From contig JAHRHZ010000018.1 of assembly GCA_024137785.1 (NCBI GenBank), positions 14,661,607 through 14,725,606 on the forward strand: a DNA stretch of 64,000 nt, in the 5' to 3' direction. This DNA comes from Ginglymostoma cirratum (taxonomy: Eukaryota). Every line of letters starts with the position of its first letter. Positions within the stretch are counted from its first letter, which is position 1. The notes under the pieces were generated by a model. The model did no database searches and was not told the origin of the DNA. It saw only the letters and a program-made list of their open reading frames with translations. The position numbers and the translations under genes are program-made. Shown one piece after another: positions 1,510-46,500 of this stretch.

Positions 1510-4500
1510 CTGCCAAGAAAGTCAAGAAGTTTACTTGTTGCCACCGCTCCAGCCCACAACAAAGTCCATCCACACATGACAAGTACATTACTTCAGATTT
1601 TTTTTCTTAACAAGTTGAGTCTTGAATCAAAGAAGTGAAATCACTTAAACTAGTAAAGTGCTTACGAAGAACAACTTATTTGAAAGCAGTGACTGGCTCT
1701 GCTGCTCTTCAGTTCTTTGCCCCAGCCCTTAGAGAGAGATTTTGCCAGATAAAGAGAAAATAAATCATACTAGACTTATAAACAACTTACTGATTTTTAA
1801 AATTTGATGATTCGGCCTTCCCTCTGTTGATCTACTAAAGCCAGCTTAACTTAATAGAACTCAAAGTACTGCTGTTTCTTTTTCTAAAAGATCATATACA
1901 CCACATGTCAGACAGAGGGGAAAAAGAAGATATGGGAGAGGCAGGGCTGATAAGACTGCGAGGAGAGGCCAGAGGATGGGGCAAATATAGTCCACAAATA
2001 GGAAAAAAAGAGCAACAAAAGAACATGGAGATGAGCAAGAGCCTGCAGAGGGATGGGAAGTAAACAATTTTAAATCTTTCAATAAACAAGTAGTGTACTG
2101 AACGATACGACTATCGCAACGAACACTGTCAATTTGATAATTTAAGACAGTAAAGGTAAAATCGCCATAGTCCCAGATGCCCATAGGGTTGTTCTCTCAT
2201 TAGAGAGAGACGACTGATGGTGGTTTAACCTGAGGGTCACCACACCTCAGGCAAGAAAAGAGATCAAGATGTAGAGTCCTTCATGGTAGCCTCAGCTGAT
2301 GTGCAAAGTGAACCCACACTGCTGGTATCACTCTACGTGAAAACCAGCCGTCCAGCCAACTGAGCTAACTGACTCCCTTTTAAGGCTTAGTGTTTGTTTA
2401 TATTTTAACTGTTAGAGACAAACATGCAACCAATTGCTAAGCAGCATCATTTATCTACAAATCTATTTATAAATTATACATTATAATATAATTTCTGAAG
2501 AAGGGTCCTGACCCGAAACGTCAACTTTCCTGCTGTGTTCATCCAGCTCCACAACGTTTTATCTCTATCTATAATGGCTGTCTGCATTCAGATGTGTATC
2601 AGATATTTATTTTTAGAAGTATTTGGTGTGAATATACGCTTGTTATCTTGTGCCACTTTAAATACTGAGAGATCTGAAATGAATGTTTTCCCTTTGTATT
2701 TAAATTTAATGAAGCAATGATGATTATTGGGTGCAAGTCTAACACATTAGCATAAATACAGAATGTAATTTTACTTTGAGCCGGTGGTGGGAGACAAGAG
2801 AAGACAGAGGGAATTTGACCATTGCCACAAAATAAAGATCACTGAGCAGAAACTCGTCATTTTTTCCTTCTTAGCAGATTAAAAGTGAAAATAGAGAATG
2901 TCGCCCACACAGTCATAGAAGTTCACATTTAAATGTGAATTTTCAAATATCAAGTACATCGATCTCAGATGTGCTTTTTACACAGATGTTTTTCATTATG
3001 CCAAATACGTATATTAGCATAACTTGAACATCACACAAATACTTAGGCAAATGTTTCCTATACCAACTCAATGTTGTCTCAGTTCTTGTACTACTTTGGG
3101 TTGCAGGAATGAATAAAAAGATTGTCGATTAAAGAAAACAAATTATAGTCTGTGGATTGCCTTCTTTGCAGTTGGAGCTTAAAGCCTTAAAATTGCTTAA
3201 CTGAAAGAGGTTTTTGGCAAAACCGTTATTAGCATTTTTTAAAAATCATTCAAAAATTTAAAATTGCGAAGAAACTGAGCAACAGGAATGGTGAAACCAT
3301 GTTTAAAAGGGGGAATGGACAAAGCCAGAGGCAGGTAACAGCTAGCGTCAAGACAATTTAGGAAAATGGCTCAGATAATAAACAGAGCCAGAAGAAACTG
3401 TGGGAGGGTTGTTTGAAGAATGGGTACATGTGGCAATTTGAGTTAAACTGTTTGGGGGAAGAAACAGAATTGAAAAAAAAAATTCAAACTTTTAAATTCC
3501 CTGGGGATTGGCAAATAGATGTTATCCAAAACATTAGAAAAGGTACGAAGAAAGAACAGGTAAATGGTAAGAAAAAAAGCCTCTGACAGAGCAAACAGTT
3601 AGAAGTAGGGCACAATGGGCCAAAGGGGACTCCTTCTATGTAGGTATTTCTAAGATGCTATCGCAATTTACCGAGAATATTTCCCACATTCAAATGTGCA
3701 AAATATTATCATTTGCCTAGAATTCCTCAAACATAAAAGGCTCCAACCAAAACAATGATTCTCATCACCAAAGGGGCAGCACCTAAATTGGGTCTACAAA
3801 TATAGTGACTACATCTTTTTCTAGGCAAAAATAACCTCCCTTCTAAAGTCTATTTTACTCTCGAGTTTTCCCCAATACAGTAGAGAGAAATCACCTCTTC
3901 CAATCAAATTCCACAATGAAACTTCAATTTCAGAAGTGTCTATTTTGAAATTCCACAACCTTTCAACAGAATCCTAATATAGTTGAAACGTTATTGTCTT
4001 TCATAAATCTCAGTGACTGACCAACGCCTGTGACTTCTCCTCGATTCCAGAAACTGTTTAAAGAGATTGTTTTAAACGCTTGACAACTGCGGGGACACAC
4101 ACTCAAATTCTCTCTCACTTCCATGAAAAGCCTTCTCTGGACAAAGTTGTTATAACGCCACCAGTAGAATCTTGTTTCCCTGGAGTCTATTTAACTAATC
4201 ATCCAACTAGGCCTCAGGGGGCCCCAACTCACTCAGGATGTTGCATAAGCTTTCTGAAATCCAAGTTTTCAGTATTACTCGAGACCACACCACCTAGCCC
4301 AAGCTGATATATTAACATCAAATGATAGCATCAGCACTGGGAAAACAATACCCTTATATTTTAAAATGCCACATTATATCTACCATTTTATTTAAGTTAG
4401 GCCAATATTCACCATTTCTATGAAACACTTGGATTTTTATAGAACAGTTATTAGATTTCCTCTTATATTTAGCGTCTGCTACATTTTAGCTTTTTTCATC

Positions 4501-13500: not shown

Positions 13501-16500
13501 CTGAATGCAGTCTTGATATGCCGAAAATACTTTACTATCCTCTTCGACTGCTTTGTCAGGCTTCCGTAGGAAGTACTGAGCATTGTTAGCACTATTCAGT
13601 GGAGGAAGATCAATATTCTGCAGCAAAGTTTCCAGCCTATGGCAAGCGAGGTTATATCTGTTAAAGCAAATTAAAATTGGTTATAAGTATAGTAGACTCA
13701 TCAATCAAAACCATACTAGCTATAAAATCTCACACCAAATAGACAAGTGATTTAATTTGTGATCACATTTTTTCCTTCATTGATGAGGGAAATAATTCCT
13801 TCTAGGGCACAAGAGCTTACTATTATCATTACTGAGAATGATTAACAAAGAAAACCATAATGAAATGTACAGTAATAAACAATTAAAACTAAAATTAAAT
13901 GTCTTAAAAAGCTGACTTTCTCCTCTCGACCTTCCTCTCTGAGGTAGGGATTCAGAAAGGCTAGCAACTTTCCAGTGCTTTGGCTAACTGACTACCTTTC
14001 AGGTGCGGTCATAAATGGCACACTAGTGTGAACAACAGAAATCAAGCCTACCCTCAGTGAACAACTTATTTCCAAGCAGAAAACTCCAGACAGTCAAAGA
14101 CATAGATCTGCTTTGCATAGTCCAATTACTGAAGCATCTGTCTCTTTGCTGCTGTCAGCACACACAACGGACCTGACGTCTTATGACTGAAGTCAGGGCA
14201 CGCAATCTAAAACTTTCACAACTTTGAATGTACATGACAGACATATAATTGTTCACTGAATTCTTATGCTGCATTTTTCCCATAAGGAGTTGCAAATCAT
14301 CTTTTCACAGCTCTAATTCTGTTCAAACTATGTTAGTGGTTGAGCCTCACTTTCAATCAGAAAGCATTAACAAAATTAATTTTACAATTTTTCAAATGCT
14401 GTTTACAGTTTGTTTCTATTGTAATAAGGTTTGCTAGTTGTAGCTAGGATCAAGAGGAGATATTCTGTAAGCTAAGAAATGGTGAAGCAATTAGGTTTTC
14501 TGCTCCAGATCATTATAATGCAATTGATGCTGATCAAATCACCTTGTGAAAACAATTTACAAAGACAGCAAACACGGGTGGGATACTCCATATCTCATGA
14601 TTAAACCCAAATGGGGTACATTAAGAGTGGTCCTTCAATGGGGAACTATAGGGTCACCAGCAAGAACAGATGTATGCCCCAGCACAAATAATTTGCAAAA
14701 GATAGATGAGGAAACAAAATGCCAGACTTTACTTGCACCTATTAAAATGAATAAACTAACCTGCACTGTATATCTTCTTGAAGAGCTACCATCATTGTTA
14801 ATTGCTGTTCCATTTCTGGCTGGCTTGCAGAATCACTTTCACCTTTTAGAGGGTCATGAATCAACTTGATTTCACTTTCCCATGGTAAGATGTAAGTGTG
14901 CCCATAATACAGACCCAGTGGTATTTTAGCTCTTGCATTTGTGCTTCCATAACGCCCGATCACAGTAATCTGCAAAACAAATGGGAAGATTTGGTTTAAA
15001 AAAGTAATAAAGAATTTAAGTAAAAGCAAAATTCTTTAGATGCTGGAAAAACTCAGGAGGTCTGGCAGCACCTATGGAGAGAGAAACAGTTAACATTAGG
15101 TCCGATACGACTCTTCAGAACTGATCTCAAAACGTTAACTGTTTTTCTCTCTACAGACCAGCTGTGTTTCTCCAACACTTTCTTTTTATTTTATATATAA
15201 AAATACCTTAACTCACATAGATTGTATGTGAAAGGAAGTATTCAAAACTCCAAACAATTGCTCTGTCATCAATTTATCTTAAATCGAAAGTTCTCATCAT
15301 CTTTAGTCCTGTAACACTCATGGTATACTGAGCACTATTCACACCGTATTCCCCAAGTTAAAACAAGATTTTTCTGGACACTGGTACCCCATTTTACTCT
15401 AAAGAGATTCAGACCTCATATAATCTTCTCAAAAGCCGTCTACATTCATACACAACCTATCCCTTTCCACCCCTAATACAACCCATTTGCTGCTGAAACC
15501 CTCACCTAGGCCTCTAACCTCTGGATTCAACCACTGCAATGCTCTCATTACAGGTTACCACTCACAGCATGAAACTAGAAGATTGGGAAAACTTTAAAGG
15601 TCAACAGAAAGCCACAAAAGGAAAACTAGCACAGAATATAAAGACAGATAGCAAAAGTTTCTATAAATATACAAAATGAAAAAGAGTGGCTAAAGTAAAC
15701 GTTGACCCTACAGAGGAAGAGAAGGGGAATCTAGTTATGGAATATGATGAAATGGCCAAGGCACTGAACAGGTATTTTGTATCAGTCTTCACAGTGGAGG
15801 ACACTAATAACACGCCAGTAATTGACAAAGAGACGAAGGGAGGTGAGGACCTGGAAACAATCATTATTATGGAAGAGGTAGTGTTGGGCAAGCTAATAGA
15901 GCTAAGGATTGATAAGTCTCCTGGCCCTGATGGAATGCATCCCAGGGTACTAAAAGAGATGGCAGGAGAAATAGCAGGTGCACTGGTGGTAATTTTCCAA
16001 AATTCGCTGGACTCTGGGGCAGTCCCAGCAGATCGGAAAACAGCAAATGTGACGCCACTGTTTAAAAAAGGAGGTAGACAAAAGACGGGGAATTATAGAC
16101 CGGTTAGCTTAACCTCTGTAGGTGGGGAAGATGCTTGAGTCTATTATCAAGGAAGAAATAGCAAGGCATCTCGATAGAAATTGTCCCGTTGGGCAGACGC
16201 AGCATGGGTTCATGAAGGGCAGGTCATGCTTGACAAATCTTTTGGAATTCTATGAAGACATTACGAGCAAGGTGGACAATGGGGACCCAGTGGGTGTGGT
16301 GTACCTGGATTCACAAAAGGCCTTCGACAAGGTGCCGCACAAGATAAGGATGCATGGCATTAGGGGTAAAGTATTAGCATGGATAGAGGATTGGTTGACT
16401 AACAGGAAGCAAAGAGTGGGGGATAAATGAGTGTTATCCTGGATGGCAGTGACTAGTGGTGTGTCTCAGGGATCGGTGTCGGGACCGCAATTATTTACAA

Positions 16501-19500
16501 TTTATATAGATGATTTGGAGTTGGGGACCACGTGTAGGGTGTCAAAGTTTGCAGATGACACTAAGATGAGTGGCAGAGCAAAGTTGCAGAGGACTGTGAA
16601 ACCTTACAGGGGAACATAGATACATTGAGTGAGTGGGCAAAGGTCTGGCTGATGGAATACAATGTAAATAAATGTGAAGTCATACATTTTGGTAGGAGTA
16701 ATAGTAAAAAGGGCTATTACTTGAATGGTAAAAAGTTGCAGCATGCTGCTATGCAGAGGGACCTGGGTGTCCTTGTGCATGAATCACAGAAGGTTGGTCT
16801 GCAGGTACAACAAGTATTTAGGAAGGCAAATGGAATTTTGTCCTTCATTGCTAAAGGGATTGAGTTTAAAAGCAGAGAGGTTATGTTGCAACTGTACAAG
16901 ATGCTGGTGAGGCCACACCTGGAGTACTGTGTGCAATTTTGGTCTCCTTACTTGAAAAGGGATATACTGGCACTGGAGTGGGTGCAGAGGAGGTTCACTA
17001 GGTTGATTCCAGAGTTGAGAGGGTTGGCTTATGAGGACAGACTGAGTAGATTGGGATTACATTCATTGGAATTCATTAGATCGAGGGGGCATCTTATAGA
17101 AACATATAAAATTATGAAGGGAATAGGTAAGATAGAAGTAGAGAGGATGTTTCCACTGGCAGGTGAAGCTAGGACAAGAGGGCATAGCCTCAAGATTAGA
17201 GAGAGCAGATTTAGGACTGAATTGAGAAGGAACTTCTTCACCCAGAGGGTTGTTAATCTATGGAATTCCTTGCCCAGTGAAGTAGTTGACACTACTTCAG
17301 TAAACATTTTTAAAGCTAAGATAGATACTTTTTTGAACAATAAAGGAATTAAGAGATACGGTGAGAGCATGGGTAAGTGGATCTGAGTCCACAAAAAGAT
17401 CAGCCATGATCTTATTGAATGGCGGAGCAGGCTCGAAGGGCCAGACGGCCTACTCCTGCTTCTAGTTCTTAAGTTCTTATGTTAATCAACTTCAATTTGC
17501 CAAACTCTCCTACCCCACATCAACTTCTATTCAGCCATCACTTCTATGTTCTTTAAGCATTATTAAAATCTGGTTTTGCCAGACATTAAATTTAATATTC
17601 TCACAAGTGTTCAAAAATCCTTTCACGGCCTCATCCCATCTCATTTCCATAACTTTCAACAGTCTTTCCCAGGAACTTGGATCACTCACATGCTGAAATT
17701 ACTTTGATCCTCCATGTCGTCTTCAGCTTTCTGAGCTCAGAAATTTCCCTTCTTAAACTGTTGCATATATTTTTTCTTCTTTAAAGATTCCACCCAAAAC
17801 CAATCTCCTCTAGAGTTTTTAATTATTGTAATGCTTCCTTTTGAGGAGTATCAGTTTGTCAGAGCACGTTTTTGGGAGGTACCTTGAGATATTTATTTCA
17901 CTTAAAAAGGCACATAATAACAACAAGGTGTAGAGCTGGATGAACACAGCAGGACAAGCAGCATCATAGGAGCAGGAAAGCTGACGTTTCGGGCCTTGAC
18001 CCTTCTTCAGAAATGGGGTTCTGTAATAAATAGGGAGAGAGGGGGAGGCAGATAGAAGATGGATAGAGGAGAAGATAGGTGGAGAGGAGACAGACAGGTC
18101 AAAGAGGCAGGGAGTTAGGGAGGAGATAGGTCAGTCCAGGGAGGACGGACAGGTCAAGGAGGCGGGATGAGGTTAGTAGGTAGGAGGGGATAGGTGGGAG
18201 GAAGGACAGGTTAGGGAGGTGGGACAAGCTGGGCTGGTTTTGGGATGCGGTAGGGGGAGGGGAGATTTTGAAGCTTGTCAAGTCCACATTGCCTTCCTGC
18301 TCCTCTGATGCTGCTTGGCCTGCTGTGTTCATCCAGCTCTACACCTTGTTATCTCAGATTCTCCAGCATCTGCAATTCCTACTATCTCCATAGTTCTTTG
18401 GATTTGTTTTTGTTTTTGTTAAGTGTATATTGTTTTTGTTATTCATGTAGTTTAACAGGGTACATACCTTCATGAACCTGCAAACAGGTGGAGGCAGTAA
18501 ATCATGAAGAATCAGTGAGTGTGTACTAATATCTGTGGCCACCACTAAACGTCTTCCATCCACTTCTTCTCCCAGAGTCCAAATGTCAATTGATAAAGAT
18601 GCCAAATCGCCACAGGTTGGAATTAATATATCGGTCAAGAGTATTGGTCTTCCAAAGTCCAGCGTCACAAACCGTCGAGCCCCTAAATTAGAAAAATAAA
18701 ATTTAAGTTGAATTATCAAACAAAGCAGACATTTTAGTTACAAGATGACAAACATTCAGAGGATATGCAGGACAAAAAGGTTTAACTATTAGTATGGGTG
18801 CAATTAATAAATTAATACTTTGTTGAATGGGTGACAAGTATCAGATTTGAGCATCTTGGAAATGTGCAGAACAGCCAATCTATTAAAGTTGCATTGTCAT
18901 TAAAATTACTCCACTTGCTTTCATATCTTTTGCTCAATGCTCTCTCTCTTTCATCAAGATGCCCTAGAAACTGAAAAATGGACATGATTTAAAATCTCTA
19001 AGTAGGGCACAAATAATTCAACTGCTAAAGGTAGCAAATACTTCTGTTGCAAATAGCAGGAAAGGCCAGTAACAGATTTCAACCAAGGTAGCTAGCAAAG
19101 CATGACAGTCAATCTTGCTATCTCTGGCCAGAGAGGAAAAAAATAGGTCAGAATTCATATTTCTAACAATCAGTTTTTGAATTCCTGCTGGAAAAGAATG
19201 CTAATACACTTGAGGTAATGATGCTGTCGAGTTTAGCAGCGAGGCACTTCAGAATCAAACAGCCCGCCTACATTGTCTGTTTTATTCTGACGAAAAATGG
19301 CCATTTTCACAAAGCAACAAGATAACCGGCACTTGGAAAAAACGAGAGTAAATACACACAGGGTAGACAAAAATTGCTGATAAAAGTCAATGCTTTATAC
19401 AGCTCCAGACTACTGCAACACAACAATTATAACAAAAGGTTTATCTACCCGAATGCATGCGTTCAATGATAATAGATTGATGTGGTGGAGGCTGAAGTAG

Positions 19501-22500
19501 GTGAGAAGCATGAGAAATTGCTAGAGCGAGGCCAGTTCCCAGAGAACTCTGAAAGATAAAAAAAAATTATTGCATTAACATCCAAAAATTGATCAATTAA
19601 ATTAAATAAAGCAAAAAATCCAGCACACTCACTTGTGCTTCATTTACTAAGTCAACATGCTAACCCAAAAGTATTTCTGGCAGCAAAAAGGTCAATTGAG
19701 ACAAAAATTAATCATGCTTGCCCATTGAATAGTATCATTTCATGCATTACTCATACAAAATGTAGAAATAAAGAATTTTGCACAATTTGCACATTCAGTA
19801 CATTACAATTCACAAATTAACCTTTCGTTTATTCATTGCAAAGTGACATAAACATCGCAAGTGGCACTTCCACACTGCTCAAGAACTATCACATAAGAAA
19901 GTGCTTTTTCTACATTGGACAACTTAAAAATTATACACAGTACACTAACTGAGGCCTGATTGTGCATTGTTTAAATTCCTTGTTTACTCACTACTGTATA
20001 TTCCTACTTATAAAACCCAAAATGCTATTGGTCTTTTCAAATTGCACACGTCACTGAATCACAAATTGGAAGTCCAACAGGATTCAAAAAGGAGGTGATC
20101 AGCTCAGTTTTTTAGCATGTGGTTCAGGTCAATGCCAACAGCTTGGGTTCAATTCCCGTCCAACCGAGGTAAACGCAGGACCACAGTCCTTCACACTGCC
20201 CTTAAGGGGGCAGCAGCAAACTGCTACTGACAAAAACTGACAAGAAAAAACAGCTCAGGCTAAAGCATAGCAGCAAGGAACTAAAGACACACCTTTGAAC
20301 AAAAGAAGAAAACTTACAGCCCAGGAACAGGCCCTTCGGCCCTCCAAGCCTGTGCCGATCCAAATCCACTGTCTAAACCTATCGCCCAATTCCTAACGAT
20401 CTGTATCCCTCTGCTCCCCACCTACTCATGCATCTGTCCAGACGCACCTTAAATGAATCTACCGTGCCTGCCTCTACTACCTCTGCTGGCAACGCGTTCC
20501 AGGCACCTACCACCCTCTGTGTAAAGTACTTTCCGCGTGTATCCCCTTTAAACTTTTCTCCTCTCACCTTGAACACGTGACCCCTCGTTATTGAACCCCT
20601 TACCCTGGGAAAAAGCTTATCTCTATCAACCCTGTCTATACCCATCATGATTTTGAAGACCTCAATCGGGTCCCCCTCAATCTCCTTTTTTCTAATGAAA
20701 GCAATCCTAACCTACTCAACCTTTCTTCATAGCTAGCACCTTCCATACCAGGCAACATCCTCGTAAACCTTCTCTGTACCCTCTCCAAAGCTTCCACATC
20801 CTTTCGGTAATGTGGCGACCAGAACTGTACACAGTATTCTAAATGCGGCCGAACCAAAGTCTTGTACAATTTTAACATGACCTGCCAGCTCTTATACTCA
20901 ATACCCTGTCCGATGAAGGCAAGCATACCATATGCCTTCTTGACCACTCGATCCACCTGTGCAGCCACCTTCAGGGTACAATGGACCTAAACTCCCAGAT
21001 CTCTCTGCTCATCAACTTTTCCCAAGGCTCTTCCGTTTACAGTATAGTTTGCTCTAGAATTAGACCTCCCAAAATGCATCACCTCACACGTGCCCGGATT
21101 GAACTCCATCCGCCACTTCTCCGCCCAACTCTCCAGTCTATCTGTATTCTCCTGTATTCTTTGACAATCCCCTATGCTTTCTGCTACTCCCCCAATCTTC
21201 GTGTCATCTGCAAACTTACTGATCAGACCACTTATGCCCTCTTCCAGATCATTTATGTATATCACAAACAACAGTGGCCCCAGCACTGATCCCTGTGGAA
21301 CACCACTGGTCACCTTTCTCCATTTCGAGAAACTCCCTTCAACTACTACTCTCTGTCTCCTGTTGCTCAACCAGTTCTTTATCCACCTAGCTAGAACACC
21401 CTGCACACCATGTGACTTCACTTTCTCCATTAGTTTACGATGGGGAACCTTATCAAACGCCTTACTAAAGTCCATGTAGATGACATCTACAGCCCTTCCT
21501 TCATCTATCAACTTGGTCACTTCCTCAAAGAACTCTATTAAGTTAGTAAGGCATGATCTCCCCTGCACAAAACCACGTTGCCTATCACTGGACAGAGCAT
21601 ACATGAAAGGAAAAAAGTATTTAAACTCCTGAAGTGTCTCTGCTCATTTAAACCATTCACTGATAAATTTGTATTCCGAGGCAACAGCCGGATTTCTACC
21701 CACTGTATAATAGAGAATATGTGACTGCACTAGAAACATTACAAATAATTTTACGAGAATATTGTCTGGACTAGAAAATTTAATTTATGTGGAAAGATTC
21801 AATCAGCTAGGGGTATGGAACAGAAGGGGCTGAATGCTTGCCTAGTGGAAACATATAAAATCATAAGGATTTCCACCAAGTGGATAAGAAAGCCCTATTC
21901 CTCGTGGTTGAGGGAACGTGGAATTAAGCATAATGACTACTTCACAGCTGGCACAGACATGATGTAAAGTCACCTCCTTGCATAAATTTCTTTAGTTTCC
22001 AATTTTTCTTCTAAAATCCATTATATTAGATTAGTCAGCAAATCGTCATATTGTTCTGCCTAGATCCAAATTTAAATCATCAACATGAAGTAAGTGAGTC
22101 TAGCACCAGCTACAGAGATACACCATTTGTCATTATTCGCCATCTGAAGTTAACACTTGCAAACACTAATCATTTGTTTCTCACCCAACAAATTTCTATC
22201 TATGCTATATTTCCACGTAGCACTTATTATAAGATTCCCGCAAAACATCTTGAAATGCCTCGCAAAAATCCATGTTGAATCTAATCAGTGAATTAATTCA
22301 ACTAATTGCGAAAGGCAGTCAGTTTTTTAAAAAAGGTTAATTGGAATTGTGCGCAATTGATATTTAACAGATTTTAAAAACCAATATATTTAAATATGCA
22401 CAGGAATTCTAAAAATATATACATTAGTAGGATACTCCCAAACATACCGTTTTGGACTTGTTGGCATTTTTTGAATGAATGGCCACAGTGACAGGATGAG

Positions 22501-40500: not shown

Positions 40501-43500
40501 ATATTAAAAAACACAATAAATTCATGGCTTTATAAATTCTAGAATTCACAACTAATTAACCTTTAAAAGCAAGTGATGCAGAAGTTTTCTGGTCAAATAG
40601 ACAAGGAGTCAAAGAAAAAGGTATCACACTTGGATTCCCAAGCAATCTTATTGAGCTCCTTAAAAAGGAACTATTGTTGGTCATTGTCAGTTACAATTGT
40701 CCTTTTATTCTGGGCTAAATGGTATTTGGCAATTATCTGTTGCAAGTGTCATAGTAGGTATGATTCCAACCAGCACAGTTTTCCCCAATCCCACTGATCC
40801 AGTTGCTGCCAGCACAACTTTCTTCCAACCATATACCACTCTTCGTCATGTATTCAGCGAGTCTGCTCTGGCAGTGGGGCAGAACCTACCCAGTGACATT
40901 ACCATTACGCCAGCTAATCAAATGTTAAAGTCAAAACTGATTCAACAGGCTCCAAATAACTCCATTAACAATACAACAGAATACAAAATCAAATCTGGCA
41001 TTTAAACGAGGATAAATTTCATGGCAAATTATATGTAATTAACACTGTCATTACATCACCACAGAAGTTAATCTCAGGCTGATCAATACATTTAATATAA
41101 TGCCATTTAAAAGAAGATGCTTTTTACTGCAGTTGCAACTAATCCAGCTTGATCTTACCTTTAATTAGCTTAGGACTAGTTAGTGTCAGCATCCCAGCAT
41201 GTCCTGAAAGATCCAGGCCACTTGCCAACCATACAGGTCCACATAATATATCTTCCTTGTGTTCTTCCAGAAATTGACAAAGTCTGGGGCCTTCTTGGTA
41301 CATAGAATGGAAGGGAAAATGTGGTCATACACCTTTGTACTGTAATACTTTGACATAATTCTTGCACAATGTACAGTTTACACTAAGATGAAAACAAACA
41401 GAATGGAAACCCCATTAAATGCAAGTCTAATCAGTGGGATCATTTAACATCTAAGTGAACCCACAAATTATCCTAGAGAATTTGCACAACTGTATCGCAT
41501 AACCTTCATCAATTATTTTCCAAATTCCAGGCAATGAATTAGTTATAGCATTGCTATGAAAAGTGATTAGGTACTCAGAATCAATTAACACAACTTTATC
41601 ACCTGCAGAAACAGGATTGCCAGGACTTTGAAGCATGGGGAGCAAGAAGTCTGCTTTTAATTCAGTTCCACTTCTAAACAGTATTCACAAACAAAAGGAG
41701 CAAAATCAGTAGACTAAATCAACATGGACAGCTCTTGGAGGAACAGAACACAAGCCTATTTCCAGTTATGGGATAATGCACACTTTGGACATGGAAACAA
41801 GAGGAGTAAAAATGGTTATGATTTATTCTGGGGAAGTAAAATTCTTTAATCTCATTCTTGCGCCTGGATAACAATTTATTCAAGCAATCGCAAATAGTTT
41901 CTTCTTAAATTAATAAGAAGCCCTATTTCACTGCAAGACTTTTTCCTTAAATTGAACTGTGTGTTTGTCACTGAAATGTAACTGCTTATCGAATTAAAAA
42001 CATTAACAGTTACCAAATGGGCAGCACGGTGGCTCAGTGATTAGCACTGCTGCCTCACATCACCAGGGACCCAGGTTCAATTCTAGCCTCAGGCAACTGA
42101 CTGTGTGAAGTTTGCACGTTCTGACTTTAAATCTGGTGTTGCGTTGTTAAACCCACGCAAAACGTCAACATATATTTGATCACTTTCCCCAGTAGGCATT
42201 TATAAGGTTTGCCACTATTTGCTCATAACTAAAGCAATGATTGAAATTCAAACTAGTCTATTTTCTTGAATAATTAGCAGCATTGCCCTTTCAGAAACTT
42301 TAAAGCAAAAATATCATCTGCACATAGATTATCCGTAATATGATCAGTGGCAGGAGTTAAACTTCAAATCAGCTTCTATTTTTCTCCTCCTACAAATTAA
42401 AATGACAAATGCATGCAAAAAGGTGGTATAAAATGCACACATTCATGTACATGTTCTCCCCAAAGATCTATTTGATGTCAATGTTACACTCAAGAAATAC
42501 AGACTTGCACAAAACTTCACGTTAGTACCAGTTGCAAGCATCTAGACAATTGATCTTTCAAATCAAGTTTTATTTTGCTATTGATATCAGCACTATATAT
42601 GAAATTAAAGTGTGGGATTTCTCTAAAATGTCACATTTTAGCTAACCTTGAGATTCATCCACATCCATGTCTTCACTTAAATCAGCAAGATCAGATCGCC
42701 CATTTCTCTCTACCTCCACATGAGAAGCTGGAGATAAAGGGAACAAGATCTGCTTGTCCACTGCAGGCTCTGCAAGAAGAAGCAAGGAATAAAAGAAAAA
42801 CTTTCATTTATATCAAGCCTCCCAGAACATTAGGACATCCCAAAGTATTTTTCAGCCAATTTAGACAGGTGGTCACACCACAGATGAAGGGACCTGAAGG
42901 AGGAAGGGAATGGGTGACCACCAAGCAGTCCAAGAGAATCAGGCAGGTAAGTTCAGCAGTCCCCCGGGGTCTTGCTCACAAATTGGTATTCCATTTTGGA
43001 GGCTGGTTCTTCCAGGGAGTGCACACTGGCACACAAGCAGCCTGTCTGTACAGGATGGGGAGGACGAGAGTAATGGCAATAGTAATACTGGATTCTATAA
43101 TCAGGGGAACAGATAGGTGCTACTGTGGCTGTCAACATGACTCCAGGATGGTGTTTTATCTCCCTGGTGCTGATGTCACTGAATGGCTGCAGGGCATCCT
43201 GAAGGGGTGGATGATAAAGCAGAGGTCACGGTACATGGTGGTACCAAGATATAGATAGAAAGAGGGATGAGGTCTTGCATCAAGAATTCAGGGAGCTAGG
43301 CAGTAGACTAAAAAGTAGAGATAGTAGGAACTGCCGATGCTGGAGAATCTGAGATAATAAGGTGTAGAGCTGGATGAACACAGCAGGACAAGCAGCATCA
43401 GAGGAGCAGGAAAGCTGGCATTTCGGGTTGAGACCCTTCTTCAGAAATGAGGGAGGGGAAGGGGATTCTGAAATAAATAGGGAGAGAGGGGGAGGCGGAT

Positions 43501-46500
43501 AGAAGATGGATAAAGGAAAAGGTAGGTGGACAGGAGACATACAGGTCAAAGAGGTGGGGTTGGAGCCAGTAAAGGTGAATGTAGGTGGGGAGGTAGGGAG
43601 GGGATAGGTCGGTCCAGGCAGGACGGACAGGTCAAGGAGGCGGGATGAGGTTAGTGGGTAGGAGAAGGGGGTGGGGCTTGAGGTGGGAGGAATGGTTAGG
43701 GAGGCGGAGACGAGCTGGGCTGGTTTTGGGATGCGGTCAGGGGAGGGGAGATTTTGAAGCTTGTGAAGTCCACATGGGAACCCTGCAGGCCAAGGGTATC
43801 AAAGCGAAATATGAGATGCTGTTCCTGCAGCTTTCAGGTGGCATCATTGTGGCAATGCAGGAGACCCAGGACAGACATGTCGTCCAAGGAGTGGGAGGGG
43901 GAATTGAAATGGTTCACAACTGGGAGGTGTAGTTGTTTGTTGTGAACTGAGCATAGGTGTTCCACAAAGCGGTTGCCAAGCCTCCGCTTGGTTTCCCCGA
44001 TGTAGAGGAGGCCACAACGGGAAAAGCGGATACAGTATACCACATTAGCAGATATGCAGGTGAACATCTGTTTGATGTGGTAGGTCTTCTTAGGGCCTGG
44101 GACGGGGGTGAGAGGAGGGGCAGGTGTAGCACTTGCTGCGGTTGCAGGTAAAAGTGCTGGGGGTGATGGGGCTAGTGGGGACTATGGAGCGGACAAGGGA
44201 GTCACGGAGAGAGCGATCCCTCCGGAAAGCAGATAAGGGTGGGGAAGGAAAAATGTCTTTGGTAGTGGGTCAGATTGCCGACTAAAAAGCAGGATCTCTT
44301 GGGTCATGATCTCTTGGGTCATAATCTCTGGATTACTCCGATTGCCACATGCTAGCAAGCAAAGAAATAGGATAATAGTGCAGGTGAACATGTGGCTTAA
44401 GAATTGGTGCAGGAAGGAGGAATTTAGATTCCTGGATCACCTAGGCCGTTTCTGTGGAACAAACAGGACTGTCTACACTCTAACCAGAGCGGGACTAACA
44501 TTCTTGCGGGGTCGGTTTGCTAGTGCTGCTGGGAGGAGTTTCAATTAATTCAGCGGGAGAGGGAACACAGACTGTTCAAATAAGGGCACAGCATTGTACA
44601 GTAAAACAACCATGCCAGAGCAAGTACAGCTGTATTAATTCTCAGTGGAATAAGGCCAGGCTGCATGGCCTTTACTTTAATGCCAGGGTAACACAAGTGA
44701 AACGGATGAGCTAAGGGCAATGATTGACACATGGAAGTGAGATACAGTAGCCACAGAGACATGATTGAGGGAGGGGCAGGATTGCCAACTCAACATTCCG
44801 GCATATGGAACCTTCAGGTAAGACAGAGGAGGGTTGAGAGTGGAAGAGGCATTGCATTATTAGTTAGGTATCAGTTACTGCAGTAAGGAAAGGTGATATA
44901 ATTTGGAAGGGACATTGAATGAAGCTTTGTGGGTAGAGTTTAGGAATTAAAAAAAGGGCCAGCCATATTGCTAGTACTTATTATAGACACCCAGAGAGTC
45001 GACAGGAAACGAAGCAAATTGTGCAAATTCAAGGTGGTGAGTAAAATACAAAAGGGTTATTAAAGTAAGTGATGGATTTCAATAAAGCCTTTGACAAGGT
45101 CCCACACAGAAGACTTATGAAAAAGCAAACAAACGCAGGATACAGGGTAATTTGATGAATTGGGTTAAAAGTTGGTTCTGTTGTAGGAGACAGAGGGTGG
45201 TGACAAAAGGCTGCTTTAGTAACTGGAAGCCACTGTCCAGTAGCATACCACAGAGATCTGTGCTGGGTCCCCTTTTATTTACCATTTATACACATGACAT
45301 AGATGACTGTGCAGGGTTTGAATTAGCAGGTTTGCAGATGACACAAAAATTTGTCGGGTGGTTAACAGAGAGGCTGAATGTCTTGGACTGCAATAAGATA
45401 AAAACGGATGGTCAAATGGACAGATAAGTGGCAGATGAAATTTAACCCTTAAAAGTACAAAGGAGTAATTTGACAAGAAAGTAGAAAATGAACAATACGA
45501 CACTAGGAAGTTCTGTGGAACAAAGGGCCCTTGGCATGTTTGTCCATAAATGTCTGAAGGCAGAACGGCATATTAATAGGGTAGTGAAAAAGACATGTGG
45601 GACACTTGCTTTTACCAACTGAGGCACAGATTACAAAAGCAGGGAAGTCATGTTGGAGGTCTACAGAACTTTGGTGAGACCACACCTAGAGTACTGTGCA
45701 CAGTTCTGTTTGCCATATTACAGAAGGATGTGATTGAACTGGATGGGGTGCAGAGGAGGTTCACCAGGATGCTGCCTGTGATGGAAAACTGAAGTTATAA
45801 AGAAAAGTTGGATAGGCTTGGATTGTTTTTGCTGGAGCAGAGAAGACAGAGGCAATCTGATTGCGCTGTACAAGATTATGAGGAATATAGACAGAGTGGA
45901 CAAGGAGCAGCTGCTCCCCTTAGTGGAAGGGTCAATCATGGGGGAACATAGGTTCAAGGTGAAGGGGCAGGAGGTTTAGGGGATGTGGGGAAAATTTTTA
46001 TCCAGAAGGTGGTGATGCCCGAGAAGGTGGTAGCAGCATGTTGCCTCATATCCTTTATGGAGTACCTGGGTGCGCACTAGGCATGTCATAACATTCAAGG
46101 CTATGGGCCGAATGCTGGTAAATGGGATTAGGTTGAAGGTCAGGTGTTTCTCAAGCATCGGTGCAGATTTGATTGGCCAATGGGCCTCTTCTGTACTGTA
46201 TGATTCTATGATTCAATTAAGCACTTTTGAACCAACTTTTGTTTTGTAGGAAACAACGTCCAATTTTTACACAGCAAGCTCCCACAACCAGCAAAGTTGT
46301 AATAATAGGATAATTCACAAAGGGATAAATATTGACCACAACACCAGGAGAGCTCCCAAGGAGCTTCTTTAAAAGAATATTGTGGAATCCTCTAAATTAA
46401 CCTGACAAAACAGATGGGGCCTCAGTTGTCAACGTTCCATCAAAAAGACAGTACCGGTAATAGGACAGCATTCCCTCACCCCTGCAATGGAGCAGCAGTA

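What the first reader, a model, noticed from the sequence alone, without database searches (positions are those of the whole stretch)
17917..18388. Fold-back Penelope element places an intact-core hammerhead ribozyme in the BIRC6 pre-mRNA, about 80 nt from a splice donor
Seen: on the transcribed minus strand, 17983-18010 reads CUGAAGA-A-GGGUC-AA-GGCCC-GAAAC-GUC. This is a full hammerhead catalytic core with stem II, a self-complementary ACGU stem III and a GUC cleavage triplet. It lies inside a loop closed by 57-bp inverted arms with 2 mismatches, and the element begins about 80 nt into the intron after exon 18468-18682. Known: Penelope-like elements carry minimal type I hammerheads in their terminal repeats, and those with palindromic stem III are thought to cleave as dimers. 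Inference: this could be a self-cleaving, dsRNA-clamped module in the intron of an essential gene, where the clamp would hold cleaved halves together. Caveat: stem I pairing (AUUU/AGCU) is marginal, so monomer activity may be nil.
Basis: partly seen in the sequence, partly recalled or inferred. Interest (0 to 1): 0.7.

Follow-up and report, generated by a model that had tools for sequence, protein, structure and literature searches.

The report
Locked ribozyme relic in BIRC6 intron
This 472-base hairpin in an intron of the BIRC6 gene is one of an estimated several hundred thousand leftover ends of a Penelope-type jumping gene, and the self-cutting RNA motif it carries is predicted to be inactive because the hairpin itself takes away a strand the motif needs in order to fold.

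Summary
17917-18388 is a head-to-head insertion of the 3' end of an RT + GIY-YIG Penelope-like element (PLE) in a BIRC6 intron. The hammerhead core is intact, but ordinary: 81 such motifs in 696 kb of readable sampled genome, 29 with full core plus ACGT; 41 of 102 arms are fold-backs, and 15 of 16 complete pairs show the same one-tail/one-short layout, as published for PLEs. As RNA the arms pair for 60 nt, up to the second base after the cleavage site, so the clamp is predicted to take the helix I strand (p>0.99) instead of supporting the ribozyme. Helix I is already broken in this subfamily (0 of 57 copies with 3 contiguous pairs), helix III needs a second copy, and the nearest same-strand intact copy found is 87 kb away. 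The same pre-mRNA carries 5 sense and 4 antisense motifs. Three runs of a related organism lack this arm at the orthologous flank. The scan has reported the same kind of element many times on other DNA.

The parts
17917..18388 (.). Whole head-to-head (fold-back) insertion of a Penelope-like element 3' end, 472 bp
17917..18290 (-). Sense piece (same strand as BIRC6): last codons of the GIY-YIG ORF, C-rich 3' region with internal deletions, hammerhead, short 3' end (about +65 after the cleavage site, no tail)
   Evidence: about 80% gapped identity over nt 1-369 to the 3' end of 19 of 19 long copies
17983..18010 (-). Minimal type I hammerhead core: CUGAAGA, bulged A, stem II 18002-17999/17994-17991, GAAA, palindromic ACGU, GUC; nominal cut after 17983
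18011..18014 (-). 5' strand of helix I (AUUU); against AGCU gives U-A, U-G, U x C, A-U
17979..17982 (-). 3' strand of helix I (AGCU); bases 17981-17979 are predicted paired to 18291-18293 in the long hairpin (p 0.997-0.999)
17922..17981 (-). Downstream arm of the 60-nt hairpin
   Evidence: duplex -114 kcal/mol
18291..18388 (+). Inverted, 5'-truncated copy, element positions +2 to +99, lacking the hammerhead; 18291-18350 is the upstream arm
   Evidence: 98% identical to reference copy L022
18356..18388 (+). One-sided PLE 'tail' (about 33 nt)
   Evidence: 3' ends of sampled copies fall in two groups near +66 and +100; loose ends pile at 18355 and 18388
17913..17916 (+). CATA, left copy of a 4-nt direct repeat (possible remnant of a target duplication; could be chance)
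18389..18392 (+). CATA, right copy of the 4-nt direct repeat
18021..18040 (-). Pyrimidine tract plus TTACAG, a 3' splice-site-like stretch carried by the element; use not shown
   Evidence: sequence
18468..18682 (-). BIRC6 coding exon (human aa 1789-1859); GT donor at 18467

Best explanation
This is a dead-on-arrival, head-to-head insertion of the 3' end of a high-copy RT + GIY-YIG Penelope-like retrotransposon in a BIRC6 intron, and its hammerhead is a passenger that is predicted not to cut the pre-mRNA. Shown: identity of the element, the layout (one 374-nt sense piece ending short, one 98-nt inverted piece carrying the tail), the abundance of the motif and of the layout. Predicted by folding: when the intron is transcribed the inverted arm is made first; as soon as the bases after the GUC emerge they zip into a 60-bp helix, which removes the 3' strand of helix I; before that, helix I has only two contiguous pairs and helix III cannot form without a second copy. 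Inferred from published PLE work: the layout arises because the PLE protein cuts both DNA strands and primes two cDNAs from two internal start sites (short end and tail end), whose truncated ends are joined; the intron is then simply spliced out with the hairpin in it. The likeliest residual effect is a generic intronic double-stranded RNA (possible A-to-I editing substrate), untested.
For: Element: 3' ends of 19 of 19 long copies match; those copies encode RVT_1 (E 4.2e-7) and a weak GIY-YIG (E 7e-4) with a CX4CX2C linker. Abundance: 81 motifs in 696,350 readable bases, about 5.1e5 per genome (bootstrap 3.8-6.4e5; 3.5e5 if unreadable stretches held none); 29 of 81 have core + ACGT + stem II. 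Layout: 41 of 102 uncensored arms are fold-backs, 15 of 16 complete pairs are one-tail/one-short; published as typical (PMC8557442, PMC3846280, passages; tail = two RT starts, PMC11167929 main text). Folding: helix I pair probabilities <=0.003 in every context, clamp pairs 0.995-0.999; forcing the fold costs 6.4 kcal/mol locally and 16.0 in the whole element. Subfamily: 0 of 57 untruncated AG-type copies have 3 contiguous helix I pairs, against 22 of 23 AA-type. Core columns are no better conserved than downstream columns (0.87 vs 0.91; 0.94 vs 0.96). BIRC6 span: 5 sense, 4 antisense motifs. Related organism A: 3 of 3 runs show other letters after 17913. Published: a single min-HHR showed no cleavage (PMC4209133); HHR mutants did not affect insertion in vitro (PMC11167929).
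Against: No cleavage assay or RNA-end data exist for this copy; no RNA run of this organism was listed. Nearest-neighbour folding does not model tertiary stabilisation, co-transcriptional timing or protein help, and the Anolis PLE hammerhead does cut when its protein is added (PMC11167929). The core is fully intact, as in 29 of 81 sampled copies. The 4-nt direct repeat is shorter than the 10-15 nt duplications of 9 of 16 sampled pairs, so the single-event origin is not certain. 5 versus 4 is too few to exclude a mild orientation bias. Column-conservation figures are biased by the anchor and by 5' truncation.
Confidence: 0.88

Rival explanations
1. One reading: an active self-cleaving module in the BIRC6 intron, cutting after 17983 (alone, with a second RNA, or with PLE protein help), with the hairpin holding the halves together so that splicing can finish.
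For: Core boxes, bulged A, G10.1-C11.1 pair and ACGU palindrome are all present. Geometry would tether the halves, since the arms flank the cut. A PLE hammerhead is protein-assisted in vitro (PMC11167929). Domesticated intronic hammerheads exist in amniotes (PMC6155905, passage).
Against: Clamp and helix I compete for the same bases. Helix I is two pairs then a mismatch, family-wide. Nearest same-strand motif is at 43444 with a broken core; nearest same-strand intact ones are 87 kb downstream. Not attached to the orthologous flank in organism A. Only 1 of 102 sampled arms starts within 3 nt of the cleavage site, so the family leaves no record of RNA ends there.
Confidence: 0.03
2. Two-step origin: an older solo copy on the + strand (hammerhead plus tail) was hit later by a second PLE insertion in opposite orientation that replaced its hammerhead end, so the hairpin is an accident of nested insertion. 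The functional verdict (inactive passenger) is unchanged.
For: In organism A the left flank runs into 58 other letters whose visible part ends in CTGAAGGAG, a core variant seen in 2 sampled copies, and one run's right-flank contig runs 27 nt into the tail. The direct repeat here is only 4 nt. The inverted piece starts at +2, a rare start. The arms differ at two polymorphic family positions.
Against: Only 30 of the 58 letters were displayed, so a hammerhead there is not shown. The one-tail/one-short layout is what single events give (15 of 16). Arms of other pairs also differ at those positions. A later deletion in organism A would fit too.
Confidence: 0.35
3. The element matters to BIRC6 not as a ribozyme but as a 60-bp double-stranded RNA and a cryptic 3' splice site close to a donor, altering editing or splicing of this intron.
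For: Duplex of -114 kcal/mol beginning 118 nt into the intron; TTACAG with pyrimidine tract at 18021-18040 on the transcribed strand.
Against: Such hairpins are very common in this genome; the only mRNA contig seen carries the exon with no piece laid in the element, but it is from organism B, whose site was not resolved. No editing or isoform data.
Confidence: 0.07

Closest known systems
Insertion units of endonuclease-bearing Penelope-like elements: pLTR, adjacent inverted 5'-truncated copy, one-sided 30-40 bp tail (PMC8557442, PMC3846280; passages read)
   Same: Head-to-head arms, tail on one side only, 5' truncation, RT + C-terminal GIY-YIG parent with CX2-5CxxC linker
   Different: Target duplication here is at most 4 nt; no tandem pLTR; no phylogeny run, so Neptune versus Nematis is not settled
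Minimal type I hammerheads of metazoan PLEs (Cervera and de la Pena 2014, PMC4209133; parts 1-2 of 4 read)
   Same: Core boxes, unpaired base between A9 and G10.1, G10.1-C11.1, no helix III loop, palindromic 15.2-16.2, mostly solo copies, dual copies on opposite strands
   Different: Helix I has 2 contiguous pairs, not 4-5; stem II is 4 bp; the helix I strand is predicted to be held by an antisense arm
Poseidon of Anolis carolinensis, PAc (PMC11167929; parts 1-2 of 4 read)
   Same: Two 3' ends (short and tail) downstream of a hammerhead
   Different: PAc's ribozyme cuts with protein help in vitro; nothing of the kind is tested here, and this family has the zinc-finger linker of another clade
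Conserved intronic hammerheads of amniotes, RECK and others (PMC6155905; passages read)
   Same: Type I hammerhead on the sense strand of a host intron
   Different: Those are conserved across classes and canonical; this one is a repeat copy that is not retained at the flank of a close relative and lacks a working helix I

Membership tests
EN+ Penelope-like element (3' fragment) | Parent encodes RT followed by C-terminal GIY-YIG endonuclease in one ORF | tested here: met
   Long copies continuous with the fragment (19 of 19); RVT_1 E 4.2e-7 above cut-off in L163; RVT_1 and GIY-YIG in one frame in L160, both below cut-off; none in L164
EN+ Penelope-like element (3' fragment) | Inverted 5'-truncated copy adjacent to the insertion | tested here: met
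   18291-18388 inverted against 18290-17917
EN+ Penelope-like element (3' fragment) | 30-40 bp tail at one end only | tested here: met
   Ends at +99 and about +65
EN+ Penelope-like element (3' fragment) | Target-site duplication | tested here: inconclusive
   4-nt CATA only; 9 of 16 sampled pairs have 10-15 nt
Neptune clade | CX2-5CxxC linker between RT and EN | tested here: met
   CNRRKCYTC / CNRSKCYTC in long copies; motif definition from PMC8557442 passage
Neptune clade | RT phylogeny within Neptune rather than Nematis | not tested
   No reference PLE proteins fetched
Minimal type I hammerhead (motif) | CUGANGA, GAAA, UH with stem II and G10.1-C11.1 | tested here: met
   (stem II p 0.75-0.84 in a 46-nt fragment)
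Minimal type I hammerhead (motif) | Helix I of about 4-5 bp flanking the core | tested here: not met
   2 contiguous pairs, then U x C; p<=0.003
Minimal type I hammerhead (active) | Second copy in cis to build helix III | tested here: not met
   No same-strand intact copy within 87 kb downstream or 100 kb upstream in readable sequence
Minimal type I hammerhead (active) | Self-cleavage | not testable with these tools
   Needs an assay
Rfam hammerhead families | Covariance-model hit | tested here: inconclusive
   No hit, but none for better copies in 4 control loci either
Domesticated intronic hammerheads (RECK type) | Positional conservation across species | tested here: not met
   3 of 3 runs of organism A diverge at 17913; contigs only, 30 of 58 letters seen
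Non-LTR retrozymes | Tandem repeat units each with a hammerhead | tested here: not met
   Single core, inverted not tandem

The most novel reading that the evidence does not exclude
Penelope hammerheads do cut BIRC6 pre-mRNA in vivo when the element's protein or a second copy supplies the missing helices: this copy in the short window before its hairpin zips, after which the hairpin tethers the halves, or more plausibly the tandem pair of intact sense copies 889 nt apart further down the same gene. Fold-back insertion would then be the off-switch that lets a vertebrate tolerate over 100,000 intact-core ribozymes in its genome.
Probability: 0.04. Interest if true: 0.65.

Novelty: new member of a known kind. 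Interest (0 to 1): 0.12.

Why it matters
As it stands it matters little: one of very many PLE stubs, in a layout already described. It is a useful warning that an intact hammerhead core on the sense strand of an essential gene is expected by chance in this genome (about 40 intact cores per Mb of readable sample). If any such intronic copy were shown to cut, it would be in vivo evidence for PLE minimal hammerheads, which the papers read here lack, and would give a large genome a hidden load of transcript breaks. The family-level side result, that the commoner subfamily has lost helix I yet spread most, bears on whether PLE hammerheads need to cut at all.

Tried and rejected
Rfam search of 16500-19500: no hammerhead; control showed the test is blind to this motif. 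Idea that the inverted arm's start at +2 records a ribozyme-cut RNA end: rejected, 1 of 102 uncensored arms starts at -3..+3 while 38 start at -35..-25; a finer boundary call gave 3 of 104 at -1..+1, but 5 rows of that run were mis-mapped by a faulty reference, so I rely. The 'intact' count was zero through a regex error and was redone. Arm differences as proof of two templates: not diagnostic. Selection on the core after insertion: not seen. Run search: no RNA holder listed for this organism; this is no evidence on expression. Run X13 gave no usable cover of the flank. Pfam on the BIRC6 exon: nothing significant. The 3' end of BIRC6 was not reached; it lies more than 100 kb below the window. 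Sequence look-up in earlier findings: nothing. 28 of the 100 sampled stretches were unreadable and 30 of 132 arms were set aside as censored. Three paper searches listed no study of this element family; supplements of PMC4209133 and of the bioRxiv preprint, which I did not see, may list it. The label 'shark' comes from earlier scan notes and my recollection of the repeat, not from a taxonomy call.

Full report
Observation. The minus strand at 18010-17983 reads CTGAAGA-A-GGGTCAAGGCCC-GAAA-CG-TC: both hammerhead boxes, an unpaired A before a 4-bp stem II, a self-complementary ACGU and GUC. Inverted arms lie at 17922-17981 and 18291-18350, 60 nt with 3 DNA mismatches. The exon 18468-18682 translates to BIRC6 aa 1789-1859, neighbouring BIRC6 exons lie on the same strand, and a contig of run X12 joins it to the upstream exon. 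The element begins at intron base 80; the core sits at intron bases 458-485. Rfam gave no hammerhead hit, but four control loci holding better copies gave none either.

What the element is. The 374-nt sense piece matches the 3' end of 19 of 19 long genomic copies. Those copies carry an RT (RVT_1 E 4.2e-7 in L163; weaker in L160; no hit in L164), a CX4CX2C linker and a weak GIY-YIG match. This is the architecture of C-terminal EN+ Penelope-like elements; the linker fits the CX2-5CxxC motif given for Neptune (PMC8557442, passages). No tree was built. The window holds a longer copy at 43317-44269 and fragments at 2491-2565 and 62827-63348.

How common. I fetched 100 stretches of 10 kb at round coordinates on many contigs; 696,350 bases were readable, 28 stretches wholly unreadable. 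They hold 81 motifs within 5 substitutions of the window's core; 44 keep both boxes and UH, 29 also keep ACGT and stem II. Scaled to 4.36 Gb this is about 5.1e5 motifs (bootstrap 3.8-6.4e5; 3.5e5 if the unreadable part held none) and 1.3-1.8e5 with an intact core. Of 132 arms, 30 were censored by N or stretch ends; 41 of the other 102 abut an inverted copy, and 15 of 16 complete pairs have one tailed end (about +100) and one short end (about +66). The finding has exactly this layout. An adjacent inverted 5'-truncated copy and a one-sided 30-40 bp tail are described as typical of PLE insertions (PMC8557442, PMC3846280, passages), and the tail was traced to two internal RT start sites of a protein that cuts and extends both strands (PMC11167929, parts 1-2 of 4).

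Can the ribozyme work here? Three things stand against it. (1) Helix I: AUUU against AGCU gives two pairs, then a U x C mismatch. This is a subfamily trait: among untruncated copies, 0 of 57 AG-type (10 random, 47 picked by similarity) have three contiguous pairs, against 22 of 23 AA-type. Forcing the hammerhead fold costs 6.4 kcal/mol in a 46-nt fragment and 16.0 in the whole element. The upstream arm is transcribed first, so any window for folding is brief (inference). (3) Helix III has no loop and needs a second copy; a single minimal hammerhead showed no cleavage, and dimers little (PMC4209133, parts 1-2 of 4). The nearest same-strand motif (43444) has a broken core and the nearest intact ones lie 87 kb downstream. 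Against my reading: these are secondary-structure predictions, and the Anolis PLE hammerhead cuts when its protein is added (PMC11167929).

Is this copy special to BIRC6? BIRC6 runs from about 103.5 kb to beyond -99.9 kb in window coordinates (exons located partly with short motifs recalled from memory). In that span there are 9 motifs, 5 sense and 4 antisense; three sense copies have core plus ACGT, and the other two of them have 3 and 4 contiguous helix I pairs, no inverted arm seen, and lie 889 nt apart. So the gene tolerates better candidates. Numbers are too small to exclude a mild bias; a preprint reports retrozymes under-represented in Xenopus introns (10.64898/2026.07.22.740005, part 1 of 5 and passages). 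Across sampled copies the core columns are no better kept than downstream columns (rough). In three runs of related organism A, whose intron differs at 14 letters and 8 gaps over 353 nt, the flank is followed after 17913 by 58 other letters, not by this arm, while one run's contig enters the tail from the right flank. The hammerhead-bearing arm is therefore not shared in this form; whether it was added later here or lost there is open (rival 2). No RNA run of the window's organism was listed.

Does the +2 start record a ribozyme cut? I tested this because it would have been new. Only 1 of 102 arms starts within 3 nt of the cleavage site; 38 start at -35 to -25, the front edge of the ribozyme. 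So the family's preferred 5' boundary is not the cut site. Earlier scan notes report the same front-edge boundary and the same 'locked hairpin' reading on other DNA; I had reached both from my own sample before looking.

Mechanism, with status. Shown: PLE origin, layout, abundance, broken helix I. Predicted: the hairpin locks the ribozyme. Inferred from the literature: twin priming from two RT start sites made the fold-back. Untested: cleavage, editing, splicing effects.

Verdict. Real, correctly named, and ordinary: a new copy of a known kind. Interest 0.12. The reading that it is an active, clamped ribozyme in BIRC6 has about 3% support; the tandem sense pair further down the gene is the better object for an assay.

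Noticed in passing
L094:389 and L094:1278, minus strand (about 69 kb below window position 1, between BIRC6 exons): Two intact-core, ACGU-bearing hammerhead copies 889 nt apart on the transcribed strand of BIRC6, with 3 and 4 contiguous helix I pairs (one has GUA instead of GUC). A better candidate for dimeric cleavage than the finding.
   Followed up: partly
sampled loci L031-L090, L111-L150: 38 of 102 arms start at -35 to -25, just in front of CTGA, usually within ATTT; many fold-back junctions are centred there. Possibly the RNA's 5' end or an endonuclease site (ATT is the preferred cut of the Anolis enzyme). Already noted by earlier scan reports.
   Followed up: partly
family-wide; window 17979-17982: The AG-type subfamily lacks one A after the cleavage site and has lost helix I (0 of 57 with 3 pairs), yet is the commoner type (59 of 86 sampled copies), which suggests cleavage was not needed for its spread.
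   Followed up: partly
window 43317-44269, minus: Longer PLE copy with the GIY-YIG end of the ORF, tail present, broken core (GAAATGC), and a 25-bp local inversion at 43776-43800 that ends at almost the same element position where the finding's sense piece begins.
   Followed up: no
window 2491-2565, plus: Short antisense copy with intact core and an internal deletion after +12.
   Followed up: no
window 62827-63348: Another head-to-head pair of the same family.
   Followed up: no
window 17300-17480 and 20380-21640: High-copy repeat edge at 17300-17480 and RT-like frames resembling a CR1/L2-type LINE at 20380-21640 (family name recalled, not tested).
   Followed up: no
window 18021-18040, minus: The element carries a 3' splice-site-like pyrimidine tract plus CAG shortly before the hammerhead, recalling the intron end next to helix I in Drosophila Penelope (PMC4209133).
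   Followed up: no
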